A stretch of 64,000 bases of DNA. It comes from Promethearchaeia archaeon (lineage in GTDB: Archaea; Asgardarchaeota; Lokiarchaeia; Sigyniarchaeales; SOKP01). The notes under the pieces are model-generated. The model was not told where the DNA came from. It saw only the letters and a list, made by a program, of their open reading frames with translations, and did no database searches. Shown here in pieces: positions 3,182 to 36,915 of this stretch (positions are counted from its first letter, which is position 1; each line of letters begins with the position of its first letter). The position numbers and the translations under genes were made by a program. The stretch lies in assembly GCA_029856125.1 (NCBI GenBank), contig JAHQWJ010000138.1, forward strand, positions 20,521-84,520, written 5' to 3'.

Positions 3182-4576
3182 CTAAGATTTATCGTTAATT
3201 TCTTTTAGTAATTTCTTCGCATTATTTTCGATATAAGCTCCACACAGAGGACTAAAGCACATAAATGGTTCATACCCGCCTTCCTTAATATACATTTCTA
3301 GTGGGAATAAATAACCTATCCAATCTTGAGTATTCTGGAAAATTAGCGTGTTTTCCTTTTTAGTTGGGGCATGAGAAATTAGAGTTTTTCCAATATCTTC
3401 AAATAATTCGCCGGGAATTGTTATTATTCCAAAAGTATTACCATTACCAGCTGTAAATTTAATAAAATGAATTACTGTTTTTCCATAATTCTTTAAATTT
3501 TTGCGTTCAACCGTAAAAAATGGAAAGTTAACAGACTTGTAATCAAACTTGGCTATTTTAAACAAGAAATATTTTTTTAATACCCACTTTGCTTTATTTG
3601 AAAACCATACTTTTGAATAATATTTCGCATCTTTCTGGGGAATTAAAAATCTCTTCGTATTTATATCAACTTCTGTCAACGTAGAGTAATCCTTTTTAGG
3701 AATAGACTTAGCAACTTTTAAAGCTTCTTCTCCAATCGAATAACCTATTTTTTTAGTATGTTTGTAGGTTCCAAGCTGATCATAGGATATTGTCTTGTCT
3801 TTTTCTATTTTTTCTAGGTTAGTCCCTGAGGTTGTTATTGGATTTAAATCTCCTGACGGACCGTTAAAATAAATAGCTTTAATGCTTCCGCTGGTTAAAT
3901 CATCAATTATAGAAATTACCCTCCCTGGAAAATCAGCAGATAACTTATCATTTTTATATGAAAGCGTGGTCGGATGACAAGAATAATTAATTATAATCCC
4001 TATTATCTTATTGTCTTCTAATTTTTTAAAAGCAATAACCCCTAAATCAGGTAAGACTTTCCGAGTTGGCCATCTTCGATTAAGTACAATATCAGGGTTA
4101 AAACTTTCTTTTTTCCAAGCTATTGTACATGGCTCTAGATCCTCAAATAATTTACTAACCATTCTCACAATTCTATTTGTTATCCGTACGATAAATCTAT
4201 CATTTTTGTTATCGGCAAACATCACCCCTTTTATGAATCCTAATGCTCCACCGGGATAATAAAACTCACCCGTAAGATCAAATGAGGAATGGGTGTGAGT
4301 GGCATGCAGAAATATTTCATCTGGATTTAACGACTTAAATTTTAAAATCAATCTCTTTTTAATATACTCAACAATCGAAAGGGGTAATTTTAATATATCA
4401 ACCGAAATCATTAATAAATAATTATTATTATTACCATTATTTATGTTTAGTAAAACACCATAAGCATGAATATCGTCCAACTTTCCTAAGCAAGGGTCTT
4501 TACGAGAATAACCTGCCATGGGTTTTCCTATAAAATCCTTTGGTGTAATTTTTGTACTATTAAACGCAACTTTCAT
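3182..4576 (-). CDS. Neutral/alkaline ceramidase-like hydrolase
   Basis: KITP...PMAGY, ATHTHS, NYSCHPT, LSADFPG, GPSGDLNP, IPGELF, GGYE motifs. Confidence 0.75.
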   Translation of the reverse strand: MKVAFNSTKITPKDFIGKPMAGYSRKDPCLGKLDDIHAYGVLLNINNGNNNNYLLMISVDILKLPLSIVEYIKKRLILKFKSLNPDEIFLHATHTHSSFDLTGEFYYPGGALGFIKGVMFADNKNDRFIVRITNRIVRMVSKLFEDLEPCTIAWKKESFNPDIVLNRRWPTRKVLPDLGVIAFKKLEDNKIIGIIINYSCHPTTLSYKNDKLSADFPGRVISIIDDLTSGSIKAIYFNGPSGDLNPITTSGTNLEKIEKDKTISYDQLGTYKHTKKIGYSIGEEALKVAKSIPKKDYSTLTEVDINTKRFLIPQKDAKYYSKVWFSNKAKWVLKKYFLFKIAKFDYKSVNFPFFTVERKNLKNYGKTVIHFIKFTAGNGNTFGIITIPGELFEDIGKTLISHAPTKKENTLIFQNTQDWIGYLFPLEMYIKEGGYEPFMCFSPLCGAYIENNAKKLLKEINDKS

Positions 4577-22081: not shown

Positions 22082-22612
22082 TTGGCAGGCTACGATTACA
22101 CTTGGAAAATAATGATGTTAGGGGACGCGGCTGTTGGGAAGACTTCCTTAACATTAAGGTATATTTCGGGCTTTTTCCTACAAGATTTGAAACTCACGAT
22201 TGGAGTAGATTTTTATTCAAAAACTACCACCCATAGAGAGAAAAAAGTAAAACTACAAATTTGGGATTTTGGTGGAGAAGAACGATTTAGATTTCTCTTA
22301 CATCAATATTGTAAAGGAGCTAACGCTGCCTTCTTCTTATATGACATTACTAATAGGTTATCTTTGGACCATTTACCTGATTGGACTCAAATCATCCGAG
22401 AACATGCTGGAGATATCCCCATTATGCTAATTGGTTCTAAAGTAGATTTAAAGGAATTCCGAGCTGTTACAAGGGAGGAAGGGATTTTAGCTGCTAAAAA
22501 ATATAATTTATCTTCATTTATAGAATTGTCTTCTAAGACGGGTCAAAATGTTGAGAAAGCATTTGATGTAATAACTGAAACTCTTTTTGAAAGATATAAA
22601 CCTAGTTTATAG
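22082..22612 (+). CDS. Rab-like small GTPase
   Basis: GDAAVGKTS, TIGVDF, LQIWDFGGEERF, GSKVDL, ELSSKTGQNV; no C-terminal Cys motif. Confidence 0.92.
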   Translation: MAGYDYTWKIMMLGDAAVGKTSLTLRYISGFFLQDLKLTIGVDFYSKTTTHREKKVKLQIWDFGGEERFRFLLHQYCKGANAAFFLYDITNRLSLDHLPDWTQIIREHAGDIPIMLIGSKVDLKEFRAVTREEGILAAKKYNLSSFIELSSKTGQNVEKAFDVITETLFERYKPSL

Positions 22613-25665: not shown

Positions 25666-26175
25666 TTATTTTTTTGTAGTAAGATAAGCTATTATACCGT
25701 AGATTAATCCATTTACCAAACTCCCAAAGATCACATTCATTAAAGCCGCAGTTTGGTAAAATTCCCCTGCAAGCAATACTTGATAAGCAAATCCTTGATA
25801 TAGTATTATAATACTAACAAGCATACATATTATTGCAGATAGGAAAAATCCTGCGAACGCATGAACCCGCTTTTCGCTAAGTCTTCCAGTTATCACAGCA
25901 GCAATTAATGGAGCAATTATAAATCCAAGATTAAGGAAGAAAAAATTCCAACTAATAGGATCAGTCCCGATTGAGTAAGCTAAAAGATCTACTAAATACC
26001 AAATAGCATGGGCAGTTGAGGAGAACAACACGTAGAGAAGATAGGGCACATTTGGTAATATACCTGTTATGAAATTATCAAAACCATAGCCGATAGCATA
26101 GATTATGGTAAAAACTACAGCATTTAAGACTACTAATGCTACGAAACTAACTATAAAAGATTTTCCAAAACTCAT
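25666..26175 (-). CDS. Hypothetical multi-TM membrane protein, paralog 1
   Basis: 169 aa, hydrophobic; shares HAIW, APLIAA..GR..EKR.H.F.G.FL, GSL.NGLI.G motifs with the next gene. Confidence 0.8.
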   Translation of the reverse strand: MSFGKSFIVSFVALVVLNAVVFTIIYAIGYGFDNFITGILPNVPYLLYVLFSSTAHAIWYLVDLLAYSIGTDPISWNFFFLNLGFIIAPLIAAVITGRLSEKRVHAFAGFFLSAIICMLVSIIILYQGFAYQVLLAGEFYQTAALMNVIFGSLVNGLIYGIIAYLTTKK

Positions 26176-26426: not shown

Positions 26427-26936
26427 TTATTTTCTTTTTGTTGTAAAGAAAGCTAAAAGTCCAAAAATTAGGCCGTTAAGGAGACTTCCTCCAACAACAA
26501 TAAACAACGCACCACTACCGAGAAATTCACTAGTGATAATTATTTGATAAGAAACACTGTTAAATATTAGTATCAATGAAACAGTCATGCTGACTAAAGA
26601 AGTCAAAAAGACTCCGAAAAACGAATGTATCCTTTTCTCCCCAACTCTTCCGGCAACTATAGCCGCAATCAAAGGAGCAACAAGTATTATAAGAATCGAA
26701 AATAAGCTAAATAGATTATCATTAACAATTTGGTATGCTATTCTATCTACAGTTAACCAAATCGCATGTCCCATCGAACAGAAGAGATTATAAATGAGAC
26801 TTGTCGTAGCTCCTGCTGTAAATATGCTAATTATATCGTCAAATCTACCAAAACTAACATAAAGTATGATTACTAATAATAGATTGCAGACCATCAATGT
26901 TAGTAGACTAAACAAAAACGCTTTTAGTAAACTCAT
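26427..26936 (-). CDS. Hypothetical multi-TM membrane protein, paralog 2
   Basis: 169 aa, tandem paralog of 25666-26175. Confidence 0.8.
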   Translation of the reverse strand: MSLLKAFLFSLLTLMVCNLLLVIILYVSFGRFDDIISIFTAGATTSLIYNLFCSMGHAIWLTVDRIAYQIVNDNLFSLFSILIILVAPLIAAIVAGRVGEKRIHSFFGVFLTSLVSMTVSLILIFNSVSYQIIITSEFLGSGALFIVVGGSLLNGLIFGLLAFFTTKRK

Positions 26937-27363
26937 ATTTATTATCTTTTCATATTTTTATATACAAATTGATTATTCATCAAATGAATTATATTCCTAT
27001 TTAAACCTTCTCTGATTTTGTTTGAATTAAATTGAGATTTTTCACACATACAAATTTCAATTAATGTTGTCTTTGATAGATTAGATCGGATTGAAATTAT
27101 TCTAACAAAACTAGGCTGTTGACTTTGAATTTTGACTCCTTCAAGTAAATTTATAATTACAGACCTATCTTGTAAAGAAGCACCGTTTCTAAAGAATAAT
27201 TACTAAAAAGGCGACTACCGATTATTCATTTTGAGATATGTTAAAGTCTAACGATTCAATACAACAAGAATTTTCAGTACAATTGGATATATAAAAAAAA
27301 AGAAAAAAAAGTTTTTATTTTTTGCTAAACAATCTGGTTCAAACAGAAAATCGGTTAGATCAA

Positions 27364-27570
27364 TCAAATTAAGTTGATAGCGATTTTCATATCATTTTGT
27401 GTAACCTTCTTACGACCTGAATGTTTTGCTATGTCTAGCGCGCAGCCAGTTAAAGTTTTTGCGTATTCTTCTAAATAGTCCATTAACTTATCTACTGCGG
27501 CTCTACTAACGATTTCGGCTCCCGCTTTTTTCATTAAAGCTCTAAGCGGACTCCATGCGAACGCGGCCAT
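27364..27570 (-). CDS. Archaeal histone, copy 1 (uninterrupted, 68 aa)
   Basis: Histone fold: PLRALMKKAGAEIVSRAAV...AKHSGRKKVTQNDMKIA; SD GTGGAGGA upstream. Confidence 0.95.
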   Translation of the reverse strand: MAAFAWSPLRALMKKAGAEIVSRAAVDKLMDYLEEYAKTLTGCALDIAKHSGRKKVTQNDMKIAINLI

Positions 27571-27696
27571 GATTTTATTCCTCCACTAATTATTTTTGTT
27601 TAATTTCCCGCACTTTTTACAAGTTTGGGTTAAATTCTTTAATTTTTAATTTTTTAAAAAAATTTAAAGTATTTAAATTAAAATTGGTATTATTCC

Positions 27697-27704
27697 TATA
27701 TAAA
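27697..27704 (-). promoter_or_regulatory. TATA box of histone copy 1 (TTTATATA)
   Basis: Conserved with flanks at the equivalent position in copy 2 (28754-28761). Confidence 0.65.
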
Positions 27705-28034
27705 TGTGTTGGTTGATCATAGTTTATCCGAGTAATTTTATCATCCAATTATGGTCGACAAAAAGAATCATTGTTGCTGAGAAAAAAAAAATTTAATAGC
27801 AAAATCAGATCGTAAAAAATGATCAAATGTTGACTTCGGTTGTAAATTTGGATTTGAAGTTGAACTTAAGACCTATTAATATTGTTGAGATCCTTGACGA
27901 GTTTTCAGAAAATATTCTTGTTAGTAAAAGATAGAGTAGGCTATAATATGAGAATTCAAATATTCAGTATTTTTGAGCCACATATTCTAACCTACTTTTT
28001 TATTACTTCTAATCTATAGAAGTTCAAAAAATAT

Positions 28035-28317
28035 TCAAAAAAAATTGTCCATCCTTTTGTATTTTGATTCGTCTATAACTTCTCTCCCCTCAACGAAGAG
28101 GGCGAACTATCGCCTTTTGTTAAACTTCTTAACGAGATTAATTCCAATCCAAAAGTTATTCTATCGAAAGAAAAACTTACCAACGTCATTTACTAATGAA
28201 CTTCTTTCTCTAGATGACAAGGAAAAATTGTCGGATATAGCAGTTAATCAATATATCAACTCATATAAGACAGTTAAGGCAGATTATCTAGATTATTGTA
28301 AGGGAAAAGGTATTTAA
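28035..28317 (+). pseudogene. Probable degraded gene fragment between the histone copies
   Basis: Protein-like reading IVHPFVF*FVYNFSPLNEEGELSPFVKLLNEINSNPKVILSKEKLTNV in one frame, continuing as NELLSLDDKEKLSDIAVNQY...KGKGI* in another (internal TGA plus frameshift). Confidence 0.4.
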
Positions 28318-28382
28318 AAAAAGAAAAAAAAGTATTTTTTTTTTTTGCTAAACAAACAAGTCCAAACAGATAAATCGATCAA

Positions 28383-28618
28383 TTAAATTAAGTTGATTGC
28401 GATTTTCATATCTGCTTGAGTCTAAAGGCATTCTAGATACTAGAACAGCATACTTTCTTACGACGTGAGTGTTTTGCTATATCTAGCGCGCAACCTGTAA
28501 GTTCTTTGGCGTATTCTTCCAAATAATCCATTAACTTATCAACTGCGGCTCGACTAACGATTTCGGCTCCCGCTTTTTTCATTAAAGCTCTAAGCGGACT
28601 CCATGCGAATGCTGCCAT
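28383..28618 (-). CDS. Archaeal histone, copy 2, split: exon 1 28618-28451, exon 2 28421-28383; spliced product 68 aa
   Basis: Exon 1 reads MAAFAWSP...AKHSRRKKV and exon 2 reads TQADMKIAINLI*. Joined, it is colinear with copy 1 (65/68 identical residues). The track start at 28669 lies in the leader. Confidence 0.85.
28422..28450 (-). other. Candidate 29-nt bulge-helix-bulge (archaeal tRNA-type) intron in histone mRNA
   Basis: Insert TGCTGTTCTAGTATCTAGAATGCCTTTAG is absent from copy 1; 4-bp helix AAAG/CUUU flanked by 3-nt bulges UA^U and AG^A; internal hairpin UUCUAG-UAU-CUAGAA. Confidence 0.75.
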
Positions 28619-28753
28619 AATTTTTTTAATTTCCTCCACGGATGTATAATTTTGGTTATTTTCCCGCACTTTTTACAAGTTTGGGTTAAACTCTTTAATT
28701 TTTAATTTTTGTTTAAAAATGTAAAGTATTTAATGTTAAATTGGCATTACTCC

Positions 28754-28761
28754 TATATAAA
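28754..28761 (-). promoter_or_regulatory. TATA box of histone copy 2 (TTTATATA)
   Basis: Same motif and context as copy 1. Confidence 0.65.
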
Positions 28762-29060
28762 TGTGTTGGTAGATGATGCGCATCCGAGTAATTTTATCAT
28801 CCCATTTTGGTCGACAAAAAAAATTTGAATTTTTATAGCACGATTTTTTTAGTAGTGAATTCCGATCTCCAAAAATGATCAATTATTGGCATCGATTGGC
28901 AATGTTTACCCAAAGTCAAATTAAGTTTCATACTAATCTGGCTAACATCCTTAGCGTAGGAGATTAAAATATTCTTGTTAATAAAAAATAGAGTAGAGTA
29001 TAATATGAGATTTTAAATATTTAATGTTTTAAAGCCTTGTTTCTGATATTATGCTTTATA

Positions 29061-30164: not shown

Positions 30165-30743
30165 ATGTCATTTGAACAAGAAAAACAACCACATTATATC
30201 TTCAAGATATGTCTGCTGGGTCAAGGAGGTGTAGGAAAAACTTGTATAGCGAGAAGGTTATGCTTTGATACGTTCGATGCAAACACACGATTAACGATAG
30301 GGATTGATTTTTACACCTATGACCTCCCGATTATTGTTGACGGAAAGGAAACATATGTCCGCTTATCTCTTTGGGACTTCGGTGGACAGGAACAGTTCAA
30401 GCAAATGTTTAGTTATTATATTCATGGCGCAAACGGAATATTTATGATTTTTAGCTTGTTCAACCTAAATAGCACTCTAATTGGTTTGGATTGGTGGTAT
30501 GAACATCTCATAAAACAGAAGCAAAGCAAAACTCCAAAGTTACTAGTTGGATGTAAAAGTGATTTAACAAAAAAACTGGAAAAAGTTGACGAGTTAGTTA
30601 TAGAAAGCTTTAGGAAAAAACATAATAATGTTGATTTTTTTAAAACTTCTGCTAAGAAAAACTATAACATAAGGGAAATTTTCGTAGAGATGACCAAGAA
30701 CATCTTGGATACTCATGGTTTTAAATACGATAAACTGCTCTAA
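30165..30743 (+). CDS. Rab-like small GTPase
   Basis: GQGGVGKT, TIGIDF, LWDFGGQEQF, GCKSDL, KTSAK. Confidence 0.92.
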   Translation: MSFEQEKQPHYIFKICLLGQGGVGKTCIARRLCFDTFDANTRLTIGIDFYTYDLPIIVDGKETYVRLSLWDFGGQEQFKQMFSYYIHGANGIFMIFSLFNLNSTLIGLDWWYEHLIKQKQSKTPKLLVGCKSDLTKKLEKVDELVIESFRKKHNNVDFFKTSAKKNYNIREIFVEMTKNILDTHGFKYDKLL

Positions 30744-33942: not shown

Positions 33943-36915
33943 ATGAGTTATTCATTCAGTCGAACTAAATTAGTTGAAAAAATTAAATTCGGATTATTAA
34001 GTCCCGATGAAATTAGAAAAATGTCTGCTGCCAGGATAATTACAGCAGATACTTACGATGAAGATGGTTTACCTATTCCCAGTGGCCTTATGGATCAACG
34101 GTTAGGGACTATAGAGCCGGGACAGAGGTGTCAGACTTGTGGTAACCTTGTTAGTAATTGTATGGGGCACTTTGGTCATATAGAATTAGCAAGGCCCGTT
34201 ATTCATGTCGGCTATTCGAAAAAAGTCCTTAAAGTCCTAAGAAGCATCTGTCCTGAATGTTCAAGGTTAATGTTAACAGATGAAGAAATGGAAACATTTC
34301 GGCAAGGACAAATGAAGCACCGTAGAATTTTCTTTGAAGATGATGAAGAAGCTACAAAGAATGTGTTTAAACAGGCAAGAAAAAGTAAAATTTGTCCGTA
34401 TTGTGGTGCAAAAAAGAAAAAAATTGTAATAGAAAAACCTACTACTTTTTATGAAGAAGAAGAAACTAAGGGCTCTCGAAGGATTACTCCTATTGAAATA
34501 CTAGAACGTCTTAAAAAAATGACAGACAACGACCTTAGGATTTTAGGAGTATCCCCTGAAAATGCGAGACTTGAATGGGTAATATTTACAGTATTACCAA
34601 TTCCACCTGTTTGTGCTCGACCTTCTATTACGTTAGATAGTGGAATTAGATCTGAAGATGATTTAACTCACAAGTTAGTTGATGTTATTCGTATTAACCA
34701 AAGACTTAGAGAAAATATTGATGCAGGCGCACCTCATCTAATCGTTGAGGATTTATGGGAATTACTTCAGTATCATATTACAACTTATTTCGATAATCAG
34801 GTTTCTGGAATTCCACCAGCGAGACATCGATCAGGGAGAGCGTTAAGAACTCTTACACAAAGATTAAAAGGGAAGGAAGGAAGGTTTAGAAGCAACTTAA
34901 GTGGAAAAAGAGTTGATTTTTCCGCACGCTCTGTAATTTCTCCAAACCCTTTCATTAGCATTAATGATGTAGGTGTACCAATGGAAATTGCTAAAATTTT
35001 AACTATACCTACAAATATAAACGATTGGAACATCGAAGAAATGAAACAACTCGTTCTTAATGGACCCTTTCATCATCCAGGAGCAAATTACATAATTAGA
35101 AGCGATCGTAGAAGGATAGATTTACGATACGTCAAGAATCGTAAAATAATTTCAGAAATGCTTGCTCCAGGATATACCGTTGAACGGCATTTAGCTGATG
35201 GTGATTTGGTTTTGTTTAATCGACAACCATCCCTTCATAGAATGTCTATTATGGCTCACGAGGTTAAAATAATGGATGGTCGAACTTTTAGGTTAAATTT
35301 AACGGTTTGCCCACCTTATAACGCCGACTTTGATGGTGATGAGATGAACTTGCATGTCCCACAAAGCGAAGAGGCTCGAACTGAAGCCGAACTGCTACTG
35401 AAAGTGCAAAATCATATATTATCTCCGAGATTTGGCGGTCCAATTCTGGGAGGAATTCAAGACTTTATTTCCTCTGTTTTCCAATTTACTAGTTTAGACT
35501 CACTTTATAACAGAAAAGACGCGTTAAAATTACTTTATATGGGGGATGTCTTTACTACTAAACCAGAATTTAGTTTAGACGATGTTACTCCAATTAAAAC
35601 CGATCCTGAGAAATATTACTCGGGAAAGCAAATTTTTAGCACTCTTTTTCCGAACGATTTGAATATAAAAGTAAAATCGAAATTTTGTAAAAAATGTGAA
35701 GTTTGTAAGGAAGAAGGTTGTGAATACGATGCTTATGTGGTAATTAAAAACGGTATTCTTATAACGGGAACTATTGACGAAAACTCATTCGGTGCTATGC
35801 AATCTAATAGTATTCTACAGCGTGTAATTAAGGATCATGGAAACGCGCGAGGAAGAGAATTTTTAGACAACGCCACAAAAATGTTATTGTACGTTATTCG
35901 TCAGAATGGAATGACTATGGGATTGGATGAAGTTTATGTCTATGGTGAAGCTTATGACAAAATTCTGAAAATTTTAAAAGATGTTGATATTGAAGCAAAA
36001 AAACTTATCAAAGCGTATAGAGAAGATGACACAACGGTTTTGAGAAGAGCCCCCGGACGTTCTATGCGCGAAACACTTGAACTTAGAATACGACAAATAT
36101 TAGCAGAAGCGAGAAAAATGGCAGAAGAAACCGCAGCTCACCATATTGGAGACGAAGCTCATTCAGTAATTATGACAAAGTCGGGAGCAAGAGGAAACAT
36201 CTTAAATTTAGGACAAATGTCCGCTGTAGTAGGCCAACAGGCAATAAGAGGTGAAAGAATCAATAGAGGATATAGTTCAAGAACTCTTCCACATTTTAAA
36301 CAAGACGACTTAACACCTAAAGCAAGAGGTTTTGTTGAGAGTTCTTACCGAAAAGGACTAAATCCCGAAGAATTCTTTTTTCATGCTATGGGTGGTCGAG
36401 AAGGTTTAGTAGATACTGCTGTTCGTACCTCTACTAGTGGGTATATGCAAAGACGGTTGGTAAACGCTTTACAAGACATGATTGTCGAAAATGATGGGAC
36501 TGTAAGAAATAGTGATAAAAATATTATCCAATTCCACTATGGTGACGATGGTATAGATCCTATGCATACCGATCATTCTGATGCGGTAAACCTTGATGTT
36601 CTTCTGCTCAAAGCTAAAGCACTTGATTTAAACGAAATTCGTGAGGAAATCAAAAAAAATCCAAAACCTAAAGTTACATCTAAAACAACAACAACCAAAA
36701 AACCTTCCGCTAAAAAACCTCCCGCTAAAAAACCTACACCTAAAAAACCTATCAAGAATTCACCTGAAAAACAAGAAAAAGCAGATAAGAAAGATCAAGC
36801 GCTCAGTGAAGAAGAATTGAGGGAATTGTATAACACAGAGACAGGTAAAAACGCAGAATGGAGAGGGAAGCTCACAAAAGGATATTTAGAGTGGAAAAAA
36901 GAAAGATTAGGATAA
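33943..36915 (+). CDS. rpoA1: RNA polymerase subunit A' (Rpo1N) with Lys/Pro-rich C-terminal extension
   Basis: CQTCG..CMGHFGHIEL, GKRVDFSARSVI, YNADFDGDEMN catalytic motif, DTAVRTSTSGYMQRRL. Confidence 0.98.
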   Translation: MSYSFSRTKLVEKIKFGLLSPDEIRKMSAARIITADTYDEDGLPIPSGLMDQRLGTIEPGQRCQTCGNLVSNCMGHFGHIELARPVIHVGYSKKVLKVLRSICPECSRLMLTDEEMETFRQGQMKHRRIFFEDDEEATKNVFKQARKSKICPYCGAKKKKIVIEKPTTFYEEEETKGSRRITPIEILERLKKMTDNDLRILGVSPENARLEWVIFTVLPIPPVCARPSITLDSGIRSEDDLTHKLVDVIRINQRLRENIDAGAPHLIVEDLWELLQYHITTYFDNQVSGIPPARHRSGRALRTLTQRLKGKEGRFRSNLSGKRVDFSARSVISPNPFISINDVGVPMEIAKILTIPTNINDWNIEEMKQLVLNGPFHHPGANYIIRSDRRRIDLRYVKNRKIISEMLAPGYTVERHLADGDLVLFNRQPSLHRMSIMAHEVKIMDGRTFRLNLTVCPPYNADFDGDEMNLHVPQSEEARTEAELLLKVQNHILSPRFGGPILGGIQDFISSVFQFTSLDSLYNRKDALKLLYMGDVFTTKPEFSLDDVTPIKTDPEKYYSGKQIFSTLFPNDLNIKVKSKFCKKCEVCKEEGCEYDAYVVIKNGILITGTIDENSFGAMQSNSILQRVIKDHGNARGREFLDNATKMLLYVIRQNGMTMGLDEVYVYGEAYDKILKILKDVDIEAKKLIKAYREDDTTVLRRAPGRSMRETLELRIRQILAEARKMAEETAAHHIGDEAHSVIMTKSGARGNILNLGQMSAVVGQQAIRGERINRGYSSRTLPHFKQDDLTPKARGFVESSYRKGLNPEEFFFHAMGGREGLVDTAVRTSTSGYMQRRLVNALQDMIVENDGTVRNSDKNIIQFHYGDDGIDPMHTDHSDAVNLDVLLLKAKALDLNEIREEIKKNPKPKVTSKTTTTKKPSAKKPPAKKPTPKKPIKNSPEKQEKADKKDQALSEEELRELYNTETGKNAEWRGKLTKGYLEWKKERLG

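What the first reader, a model, noticed from the sequence alone, without database searches (positions are those of the whole stretch)
28410..28465. Candidate bulge-helix-bulge intron inside an Asgard histone mRNA
Seen: histone copy 2 matches copy 1 except for a 29-nt insert (28422-28450) between KKV and TQADMKIAINLI*. On the transcript the junction reads ...CGUAAG-AAAG-UA^U-GC-U-G-UUCUAG-UAU-CUAGAA-U-GC-CUUU-AG^A-CUCAAG. AAAG (28453-28456) pairs with CUUU (28424-28427) as a 4-bp helix. It is flanked by 3-nt bulges UAU and AGA, an inner GC/GC helix continuing into a 6-bp hairpin, and a short outer AG/CU helix (only 2 firm bp, the weakest part of the model). Established: archaeal splicing endonuclease EndA cuts BHB motifs after the second nucleotide of each bulge and RtcB ligates; the well-known mRNA example is crenarchaeal cbf5. 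Those two cuts remove exactly the 29 nt and restore a 68-aa histone. The paralogs differ at 16 synonymous but only 3 non-synonymous codons, with synonymous changes also downstream of the insert, and promoter and SD are intact. The synonymous changes AAG GTT to AAA GTA are what create the helix and bulge. Inference: a spliced histone gene. The unspliced mRNA encodes a histone ending KKVCCSSI* without helix alpha3, so splicing could act as a switch on chromatin protein supply.
Basis: partly seen in the sequence, partly recalled or inferred. Interest (0 to 1): 0.95.

Follow-up and report, generated by a model that had tools for sequence, protein, structure and literature searches.

The report
tRNA-type mini-intron in Asgard histone gene
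One of two neighbouring histone genes of a Loki-type (Asgard) archaeon is broken by a 29-base hairpin shaped like the introns archaea cut out of tRNAs, so its messenger RNA very probably has to be cut and rejoined to make the histone; the papers I could search confirm this kind of splicing inside only one other archaeal coding gene (cbf5).

Summary
The insert is real (28422-28450). It is present in many independent assemblies, and removing it restores a 68-aa histone. It folds as a relaxed bulge-helix-bulge motif (4-bp helix, 3-nt bulges, 9-bp intron stem), but the outer helix is barely formed. Three variants of the insert keep the fold, and the exons of carrier alleles are under purifying selection (40 synonymous vs 3 replacement states). 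Two other histone genes of this genome carry unrelated 30-nt inserts in the same loop. The genus shows six such sites, with exon-intron covariation at three of them. A two-subunit, broad-specificity-type EndA and RtcB are encoded. Splicing is inferred (about 85%), not seen: the RNA contigs were uninformative. Two first-reader claims fail. The flanking codons AAA GTA are the commonest state in intron-less alleles, so they did not arise to build the helix. A regulatory switch is unsupported, because the intron comes and goes among near-identical alleles by short conversion tracts, next to an intact copy. This scan has already reported such introns, including in histone genes, on other DNA.

The parts
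28451..28618 (-). Exon 1 of histone copy 2 (codons 1-56: helices 1-2 and most of loop L2)
   Evidence: PF00808
28422..28450 (-). 29-nt insert, inferred BHB-type (HBh') mRNA intron; frameshifts and carries an in-frame stop at 28433-28435
   Evidence: same insert in G003 and many contigs
28383..28421 (-). Exon 2 (codons 57-68 + stop: Thr57, Asp60 equivalent to HMfB D59, helix 3)
   Evidence: intact in all 9 intron-bearing haplotypes
28453..28456 (-). Exon-side strand of the central 4-bp helix
   Evidence: pair probability 0.44-0.54 at 37 C, 0.73-0.82 at 20 C in the full pre-mRNA
28424..28427 (-). Intron-side strand of the central 4-bp helix
   Evidence: invariant in the three insert variants
28450..28452 (-). 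5' 3-nt bulge; predicted cut between 28451 and 28450
   Evidence: sequence; cut rule from PMC2738675
28421..28423 (-). 3' bulge/loop; predicted cut between 28422 and 28421
   Evidence: sequence; outer helix weak
28428..28449 (-). Intron hairpin, 9 bp with one bulged base, about -5.8 kcal/mol
   Evidence: all 5 variable insert positions are unpaired or keep pairing
28633..28637 (-). Shine-Dalgarno GGAGG of copy 2 (14 nt before ATG; 9 nt in copy 1)
   Evidence: sequence
28754..28761 (-). TATA-box-like element of copy 2, conserved upstream of orthologues across the genus
   Evidence: alignment; function inferred
27364..27570 (-). Histone copy 1, intact tandem paralogue (68 aa) and likely gene-conversion donor
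   Evidence: covered without mismatch by an RNA-library contig 27325-27627

Best explanation
The 29-nt insert is a small bulge-helix-bulge-type intron in a functional histone gene. The pre-mRNA folds so that the last exon-1 bases pair with the intron end (4-bp helix) between two 3-nt bulges, closed by a 9-bp intron hairpin (predicted). The two-subunit splicing endonuclease cuts after the second base of each bulge and RtcB joins the exons (inferred from the cbf5/tRNA pathway). This restores codons 56-57 and helix 3. The intron is most likely a tolerated, nearly neutral passenger. It sits in an A-rich Lys-Lys-Val site that already supplied helix and bulge, and it is gained or erased among tandem histone alleles by short gene-conversion tracts (inferred from haplotypes). 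Shown: the insert, the frame restoration, the fold prediction, the conservation pattern and the enzymes. Inferred: cleavage, ligation and neutrality.
For: Homology-defined boundaries coincide with the BHB cut rule; shuffle probability 1.1% for the geometry and 3.3e-4 with the hairpin. Three insert variants differ at 5 positions, all unpaired or pairing-preserving, with the helix strand invariant. Nine carrier haplotypes show 40 synonymous vs 3 replacement codon states, no disabling change, and all three replacements also occur in intact alleles. The same genome has unrelated 30-nt inserts with 4/4 helices in two other histone genes, each the only copy of its class found there. A motif-free census of 132 genus-level histone genes found frame-disrupting or core-splitting inserts only of 29-34 nt with an inner hairpin, at six sites, helix 4/4 or 3/4. 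Exon and intron strands change together at three paralogous sites. A second, unrelated 31-nt insert at one site fits in only 1 of 7 equivalent placements. Two EndA paralogues are present; the catalytic one is closest to PDB 3p1z/3ajv and has a loop aligning to the one described for broad specificity. RtcB is intact.
Against: No spliced transcript or excised intron was observed. The outer helix is not formed (P<=0.03) and a competing register is the MFE of the short junction piece. No compensatory double change exists at this very site, because the exon side is fixed by Lys-Lys-Val. An intact paralogue is adjacent, so copy 2 need not work, and gene conversion can make a dead copy look conserved. 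Exon 2 has only about 7 synonymous sites, so selection on it alone is weakly tested.
Confidence: 0.85

Rival explanations
1. Pseudogene: a small hairpin insertion inactivated a redundant duplicate. It is not spliced (or hardly), and the exons look conserved only because of conversion from intact copies.
For: Intact near-identical copy 1 kb away; clear conversion/recombination among copies; weak outer helix; longer SD spacing.
Against: Boundaries match the BHB cut rule beyond chance. Equivalent inserts break paralogue classes that have no spare copy in their genomes. Covariation at paralogous sites. No disabling exon change in 9 haplotypes that differ at up to about 30 positions.
Confidence: 0.08
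2. Regulatory switch: the intron is spliced, and its splicing rate is used to control histone supply, or to make an alpha3-less isoform on purpose.
For: Three of six histone genes here carry an insert, against very few in several hundred other genes compared. Five of six sites lie at the L2/helix-3 border, so retention removes or splits helix 3. The insert is better conserved than synonymous sites.
Against: Presence is polymorphic among nearly identical alleles. An unregulated intact copy is adjacent. Read-through tails are unrelated between sites and vary at this site. They lack the Thr/Asp motif kept by genuine short histones of the genus (L061/L062). One insert is in frame without a stop (G053). 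Structure alone explains the conservation.
Confidence: 0.12
3. Recoding or a genuine truncated histone: the 61-aa read-through product is the real protein, or ribosomes bypass the 29 nt.
For: Gene callers deposit the 61/78-aa product in many records. A C-terminally truncated Loki histone is discussed as real in PMC6136690.
Against: Exon 2 stays intact after the stop in every haplotype. The product lacks Asp60 of the conserved Arg-Asp salt bridge. There are no matched take-off/landing codons. BHB geometry recurs at unrelated inserts.
Confidence: 0.04
4. Assembly or sequencing artefact.
For: Near-identical tandem copies do cause probable chimeras nearby (L279/L289).
Against: Identical insert in dozens of contigs from ENA, JGI and NCBI assemblies, and diverged versions in G003 and L085.
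Confidence: 0.01

Closest known systems
BHB intron in cbf5 pre-mRNA of Desulfurococcales/Sulfolobales (Watanabe 2002; Yokobori 2009, PMC2738675)
   Same: Small intron inside a coding sequence, often with a relaxed BHB; cut between the 2nd and 3rd bulge base; host has a hetero-oligomeric EndA; intron gained and lost among lineages.
   Different: Different phylum and gene. cbf5 has one ancient site, whereas histones here show six sites in four paralogue classes within one genus, and presence varies between nearly identical alleles. cbf5 splicing is shown by cDNA; this one is not.
Non-canonical tRNA introns of Asgard archaea (PMC11291895; bioRxiv 10.64898/2026.10.13.758758)
   Same: Same motif, similar size, same enzymes, repeated independent gains; about 30-nt inserts also seen here in tRNA-like contexts.
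   Different: Host is an mRNA with no tRNA body. The bioRxiv paper has no occurrence of 'mRNA', 'histone' or 'cbf5', and states that none of its newly identified intervening sequences has been shown spliced in an Asgard cell.
BHB intron in the 5' UTR of Haloferax HVO_1309 (PMC7714728)
   Same: EndA substrate in a messenger RNA.
   Different: Lies in the UTR and does not break the reading frame; cleavage shown in vitro.
alpha3-truncated histones, and the 'truncated' Loki histone HLkE (PMC6136690)
   Same: The unspliced message would encode a histone without helix 3.
   Different: Short histones of this genus keep the R-K-T...D motif; the read-through product does not. HLkE itself may be such a read-through (lead, not verified).

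Membership tests
Archaeal BHB (EndA/RtcB) intron | 4-bp central helix between exon-1 end and intron end | tested here: met
   4/4 Watson-Crick pairs in all three variants; P 0.44-0.86 depending on temperature
Archaeal BHB (EndA/RtcB) intron | Two 3-nt bulges, with cuts after the 2nd base coinciding with the insert boundaries | tested here: met
   One of the two homology-equivalent placements matches exactly; shuffle 1.1%
Archaeal BHB (EndA/RtcB) intron | Inner (intron) helix h' | tested here: met
   9-bp stem, terminal G-C pairs P 0.86-0.96
Strict hBHBh' motif | Outer (exon-exon) helix h closing the 3' bulge | tested here: not met
   2 possible pairs, P<=0.03; 1 pair in G003. Fits the relaxed HBh' class instead (PMC6379350).
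Archaeal BHB (EndA/RtcB) intron | Host encodes an EndA able to cut relaxed motifs, and RtcB | tested here: met
   Two PF01974 genes; catalytic one matches 3p1z/3ajv at E 1e-33 including the loop region; one intact PF01139. Substrate range inferred from sequence, not assayed.
Archaeal BHB (EndA/RtcB) intron | Structure conserved while sequence changes (covariation) | tested here: inconclusive
   At this site only structure-neutral changes; compensatory changes seen at three paralogous histone sites
Archaeal BHB (EndA/RtcB) intron | Spliced RNA or excised circular intron observed | tested here: inconclusive
   Four RNA runs (contigs only): none spans the junction
Archaeal BHB (EndA/RtcB) intron | Cleavage by EndA in vitro or in vivo | not testable with these tools
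   needs bench work
Canonical (nucleosomal) archaeal histone, spliced product | Histone fold with L2 Arg and helix-3 Asp salt bridge (HMfB R52-D59) | tested here: met
   PF00808 on copy 1; Arg53 in exon 1 and Asp60 in exon 2 by sequence alignment; absent from the read-through product
MITE / mobile repeat | Multiple copies, terminal inverted repeats, target-site duplication | tested here: not met
   No second copy in the genome beyond 12-16-nt chance hits; boundary ambiguity only 1 nt

The most novel reading that the evidence does not exclude
Loki-type Asgard archaea use tRNA-endonuclease splicing of histone mRNAs as a working layer of gene expression. Introns repeatedly colonise the L2/helix-3 border of several histone paralogues, and partial retention either tunes the histone mix or yields helix-3-less isoforms. 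This would be a pre-spliceosomal link between RNA processing and chromatin in the closest relatives of eukaryotes.
Probability: 0.12. Interest if true: 0.9.

Novelty: new variant of a known kind. Interest (0 to 1): 0.7.

Why it matters
Papers in the searchable library document endonuclease-type splicing inside an archaeal coding sequence only for cbf5 (plus one Haloferax UTR). If these inserts are spliced, Asgard archaea process mRNAs for core chromatin proteins, and intron gain and loss can be watched between nearly identical alleles. It also means that Asgard histone catalogues contain false 'truncated' variants and miss real proteins: the read-through products are already deposited in databases, and the published truncated histone HLkE may be one. 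The claim is cheap to test by RT-PCR or an EndA assay.

Tried and rejected
RNA evidence: only contigs were available. X15 covers copy 1 only. X17 gave nothing. The X18 and X19 contigs match copy 2 exon 1 and both end at 28455. That is the last base shared by the intron-bearing allele and the intron-less G007-type allele, and both types occur with that same 5' leader (L281 vs G007). It is best read as an allele branch and says nothing on splicing. Lack of cover on copy 2 in X15 is not evidence either. Contigs with both tandem copies interrupted (L279/L289, one assembly): the second copy switches from copy 1 to copy 2 sequence inside their identical stretch near the contig end, so it is probably a chimera and was not used. 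Ab initio genome-wide BHB-in-ORF scans: lenient filters gave thousands of chance hits with no length peak. A strict filter left 24, including this insert and C82, but missed two others, so it cannot count introns. The tblastn scan with a third of a distant genome (one search timed out) recovered only the C8 histone insert among about 730 loci, was noisy, and has low sensitivity. Sigma-70 promoter scan not applicable. Rfam: nothing. An exact look-up of the spliced protein was left out because it has no sequence reference. I could not retrieve accession KKK41979.1 (HLkE). Literature searches found no report of Asgard mRNA or histone introns; subscription journals are not covered.

Full report
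Observation. The window holds two tandem histone genes on the minus strand, 27364-27570 and 28383-28618, inside a duplicated unit of about 1.05 kb. Copy 2 carries 29 extra bases. Deleting 28422-28450 (or, equivalently, 28423-28451) gives a 68-aa histone that differs from copy 1 at 16 synonymous codons, the stop codon and three residues. Unspliced, the frame stops five codons into the insert. Named cluster members label this histone family as Promethearchaeota.

Fold and chance. The 4-bp helix, the 5' bulge and a 9-bp intron stem are the MFE of a 49-nt junction piece in all three insert variants. In the whole predicted pre-mRNA the helix pairs have probability 0.44-0.54 at 37 C and 0.73-0.82 at 20 C, but the outer exon-exon helix at most 0.03. 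It is therefore a relaxed HBh' motif, not a strict one. A slightly different 53-nt piece prefers another register, and its energy is not unusual (z -0.8). Shuffling the insert reproduces the geometry at the homology-defined boundary in 1.1% of trials, and geometry plus hairpin stability in 0.03%.

Not an artefact. The same insert at the same junction occurs in congener G003 (2 differences), in JGI contig L085 (5 differences) and unchanged in dozens of ENA, JGI and NCBI contigs. The five variable insert positions are in the loop, the bulged base, the 3' bulge, or are absorbed by a G-U pair. Across nine distinct intron-bearing haplotypes the exons show 40 synonymous and 3 replacement codon states, with no stop or frameshift, and exon 2 always completes helix 3. 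At this junction the pattern search found the insert in only 2 of 154 genomes of the order, so it is a recent, lineage-restricted element.

It is not alone. Of six histone-fold genes in this genome, two more (C8 near 64407, C82 17966-17995) carry unrelated 30-nt stop-containing inserts in the same Arg-Lys-Lys loop. Each has a 4/4 helix, and each gene is the only copy of its paralogue class found here. A census that placed inserts by homology alone in 132 genus-level histone genes found six sites in four paralogue classes (copy-1 numbering, codon.phase: 3.2, 54.2, 55.1, 55.2, 57.0, 61.0). All were 29-34 nt with an inner hairpin and a 4/4 or 3/4 helix; the only other insert was an in-frame tail repeat without the motif (one gene was mis-aligned there and is taken, and G020 is read by hand). 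At three sites the exon and intron strands change together between genomes: GAGA/UCUU vs GCGC/GUGC, GAAA/UUUC vs GUAA/UUAU, and GCUG/CAGU vs GCAG/CUGA. At the C8 site a second, unrelated 31-nt insert forms the motif in one of seven equivalent placements only. Comparing 744 kb with congener G007 found one more coding case in this genome, a 31-nt insert splitting a CxxC motif on C149. A low-sensitivity scan of about 730 loci found only the C8 histone. Histone genes therefore look enriched, though I could not measure this well.

Machinery. The genome encodes two EndA paralogues. One carries the catalytic-type motifs and is closest to the structures 3p1z/3ajv (E 1e-33), including a segment aligning to the loop that PMC6379350 links to broad specificity; the other looks like the structural subunit. 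RtcB is intact. PMC2738675 ties relaxed-motif cleavage outside tRNA to this hetero-oligomeric enzyme type and gives the cut rule.

AAA GTA at codons 55-56 is the commonest state among intron-less orthologues (14 of 30), so the site predates the intron. G007's upstream copy is identical to copy 2 over nt 1-164 and after nt 177, but differs at six positions within 13 nt around the junction, lacks the intron, and there matches its own tandem paralogue. This is the signature of a short conversion tract that erased (or, less parsimoniously, imported) the intron. Carrier alleles also sit in different tandem positions in different genomes. An element that comes and goes next to an intact copy, whose read-through tail is not conserved, is more simply a tolerated passenger than a switch. 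The unspliced product would lose Asp60 of the conserved Arg-Asp salt bridge (PMC6136690) and is probably unstable (inference).

RNA. The four RNA runs were contigs only. One covers copy 1 exactly from 27325 to 27627, and none spans the copy 2 junction. Splicing is therefore inferred, not shown.

Comparison with what is known. It works like the cbf5 pre-mRNA intron and like non-canonical tRNA introns. It meets the sequence and structure features of the relaxed BHB class, fails the strict class on the outer helix, and is untested on actual cleavage. PMC7714728 (2020) names cbf5 as the only earlier mRNA case besides a Haloferax UTR. The 2026 preprints on Asgard tRNA introns and on Asgard chromatin do not mention mRNA introns. 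The residues given for the 'truncated' Loki histone HLkE (D14, K34, E45, R48, D59S) match the C8 paralogue class, and one read-through product of that class has Ser at exactly that position. This suggests, unverified, that HLkE is an unspliced intron-containing gene. Earlier notes of this scan report the same phenomenon on other DNA, including histone genes and one RNA-supported case. I formed my reading before opening them and do not count them as evidence.

Verdict. The insert is a real feature and very probably a spliced mini-intron (0.85). A regulatory role is unlikely on present evidence (0.12). It is a new variant of a known kind; interest 0.7.

Noticed in passing
G000:C8:64407-64436 (+) (L309) and G000:C82:17966-17995 (-): Two further histone genes of this genome carry unrelated 30-nt BHB-bounded inserts in the same loop; orthologous inserts in G014, G042 and G020.
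   Followed up: yes
G000:C149 about 3272-3302 (-): 31-nt BHB-bounded insert (helix 4/4, inner 5, outer 3) splitting a CxxC zinc motif; absent in G007.
   Followed up: partly
L312, L313 (histones of the C8 class); PMC6136690: Read-through of a 31-nt insert gives a 66-aa product with Ser at the HMfB-59 position; the published truncated histone HLkE (KKK41979.1) has matching diagnostic residues and may be an unspliced intron-containing gene.
   Followed up: partly
L060 (G042:C25), L080 (G003:C283), L076, L224: A further histone class carries a 29-nt insert near codon 7 and, in two genomes, a second unrelated insert (30 and 34 nt) in loop L2: two-intron histone genes.
   Followed up: partly
L078 (G053:C3) and L037 (G021:C317): Orthologues of the window's histone carry 30- and 32-nt inserts after codon 60; the G053 one is in frame with no stop, so it would be annotated as a longer histone.
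   Followed up: partly
window 28663-28685 and 27607-27629 (-): Small hairpin with an internal loop in the 5' leader of both copies, present only in a subclade of alleles; folding z only -1.2 and -1.8.
   Followed up: partly
L292, L295, L296 vs window 27290-29036: In some contigs the second histone copy is inverted relative to the first, and leaders, CDS halves and 3' ends are shuffled among alleles: an actively recombining histone locus.
   Followed up: partly
L061 (G024:C48), L062 (G014:C111): Short (about 65 aa) histone-fold proteins ending just after an R-K-T...D motif, resembling genuine helix-3-truncated histones.
   Followed up: no
G000 whole genome; C123:5582, C49:3706: ARAGORN finds only 17 tRNA genes in a 99% complete genome; two 30-nt inserts in T-arm-like tRNA sequence differ between G000 and G007.
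   Followed up: no
window 25666-26175 and 26427-26936 (-): Two tandem 169-aa hydrophobic proteins without a Pfam match directly downstream of the histones.
   Followed up: no
window 33943-36915 (+): RNA-polymerase-A'-like ORF (990 aa, by eye) ends in a Lys/Pro-rich low-complexity stretch followed by a short extra C-terminal segment.
   Followed up: no
window 22082-22612 and 30165-30743 (+): Two Ras/Rab-like small GTPases flank the histone region (PF00071).
   Followed up: no
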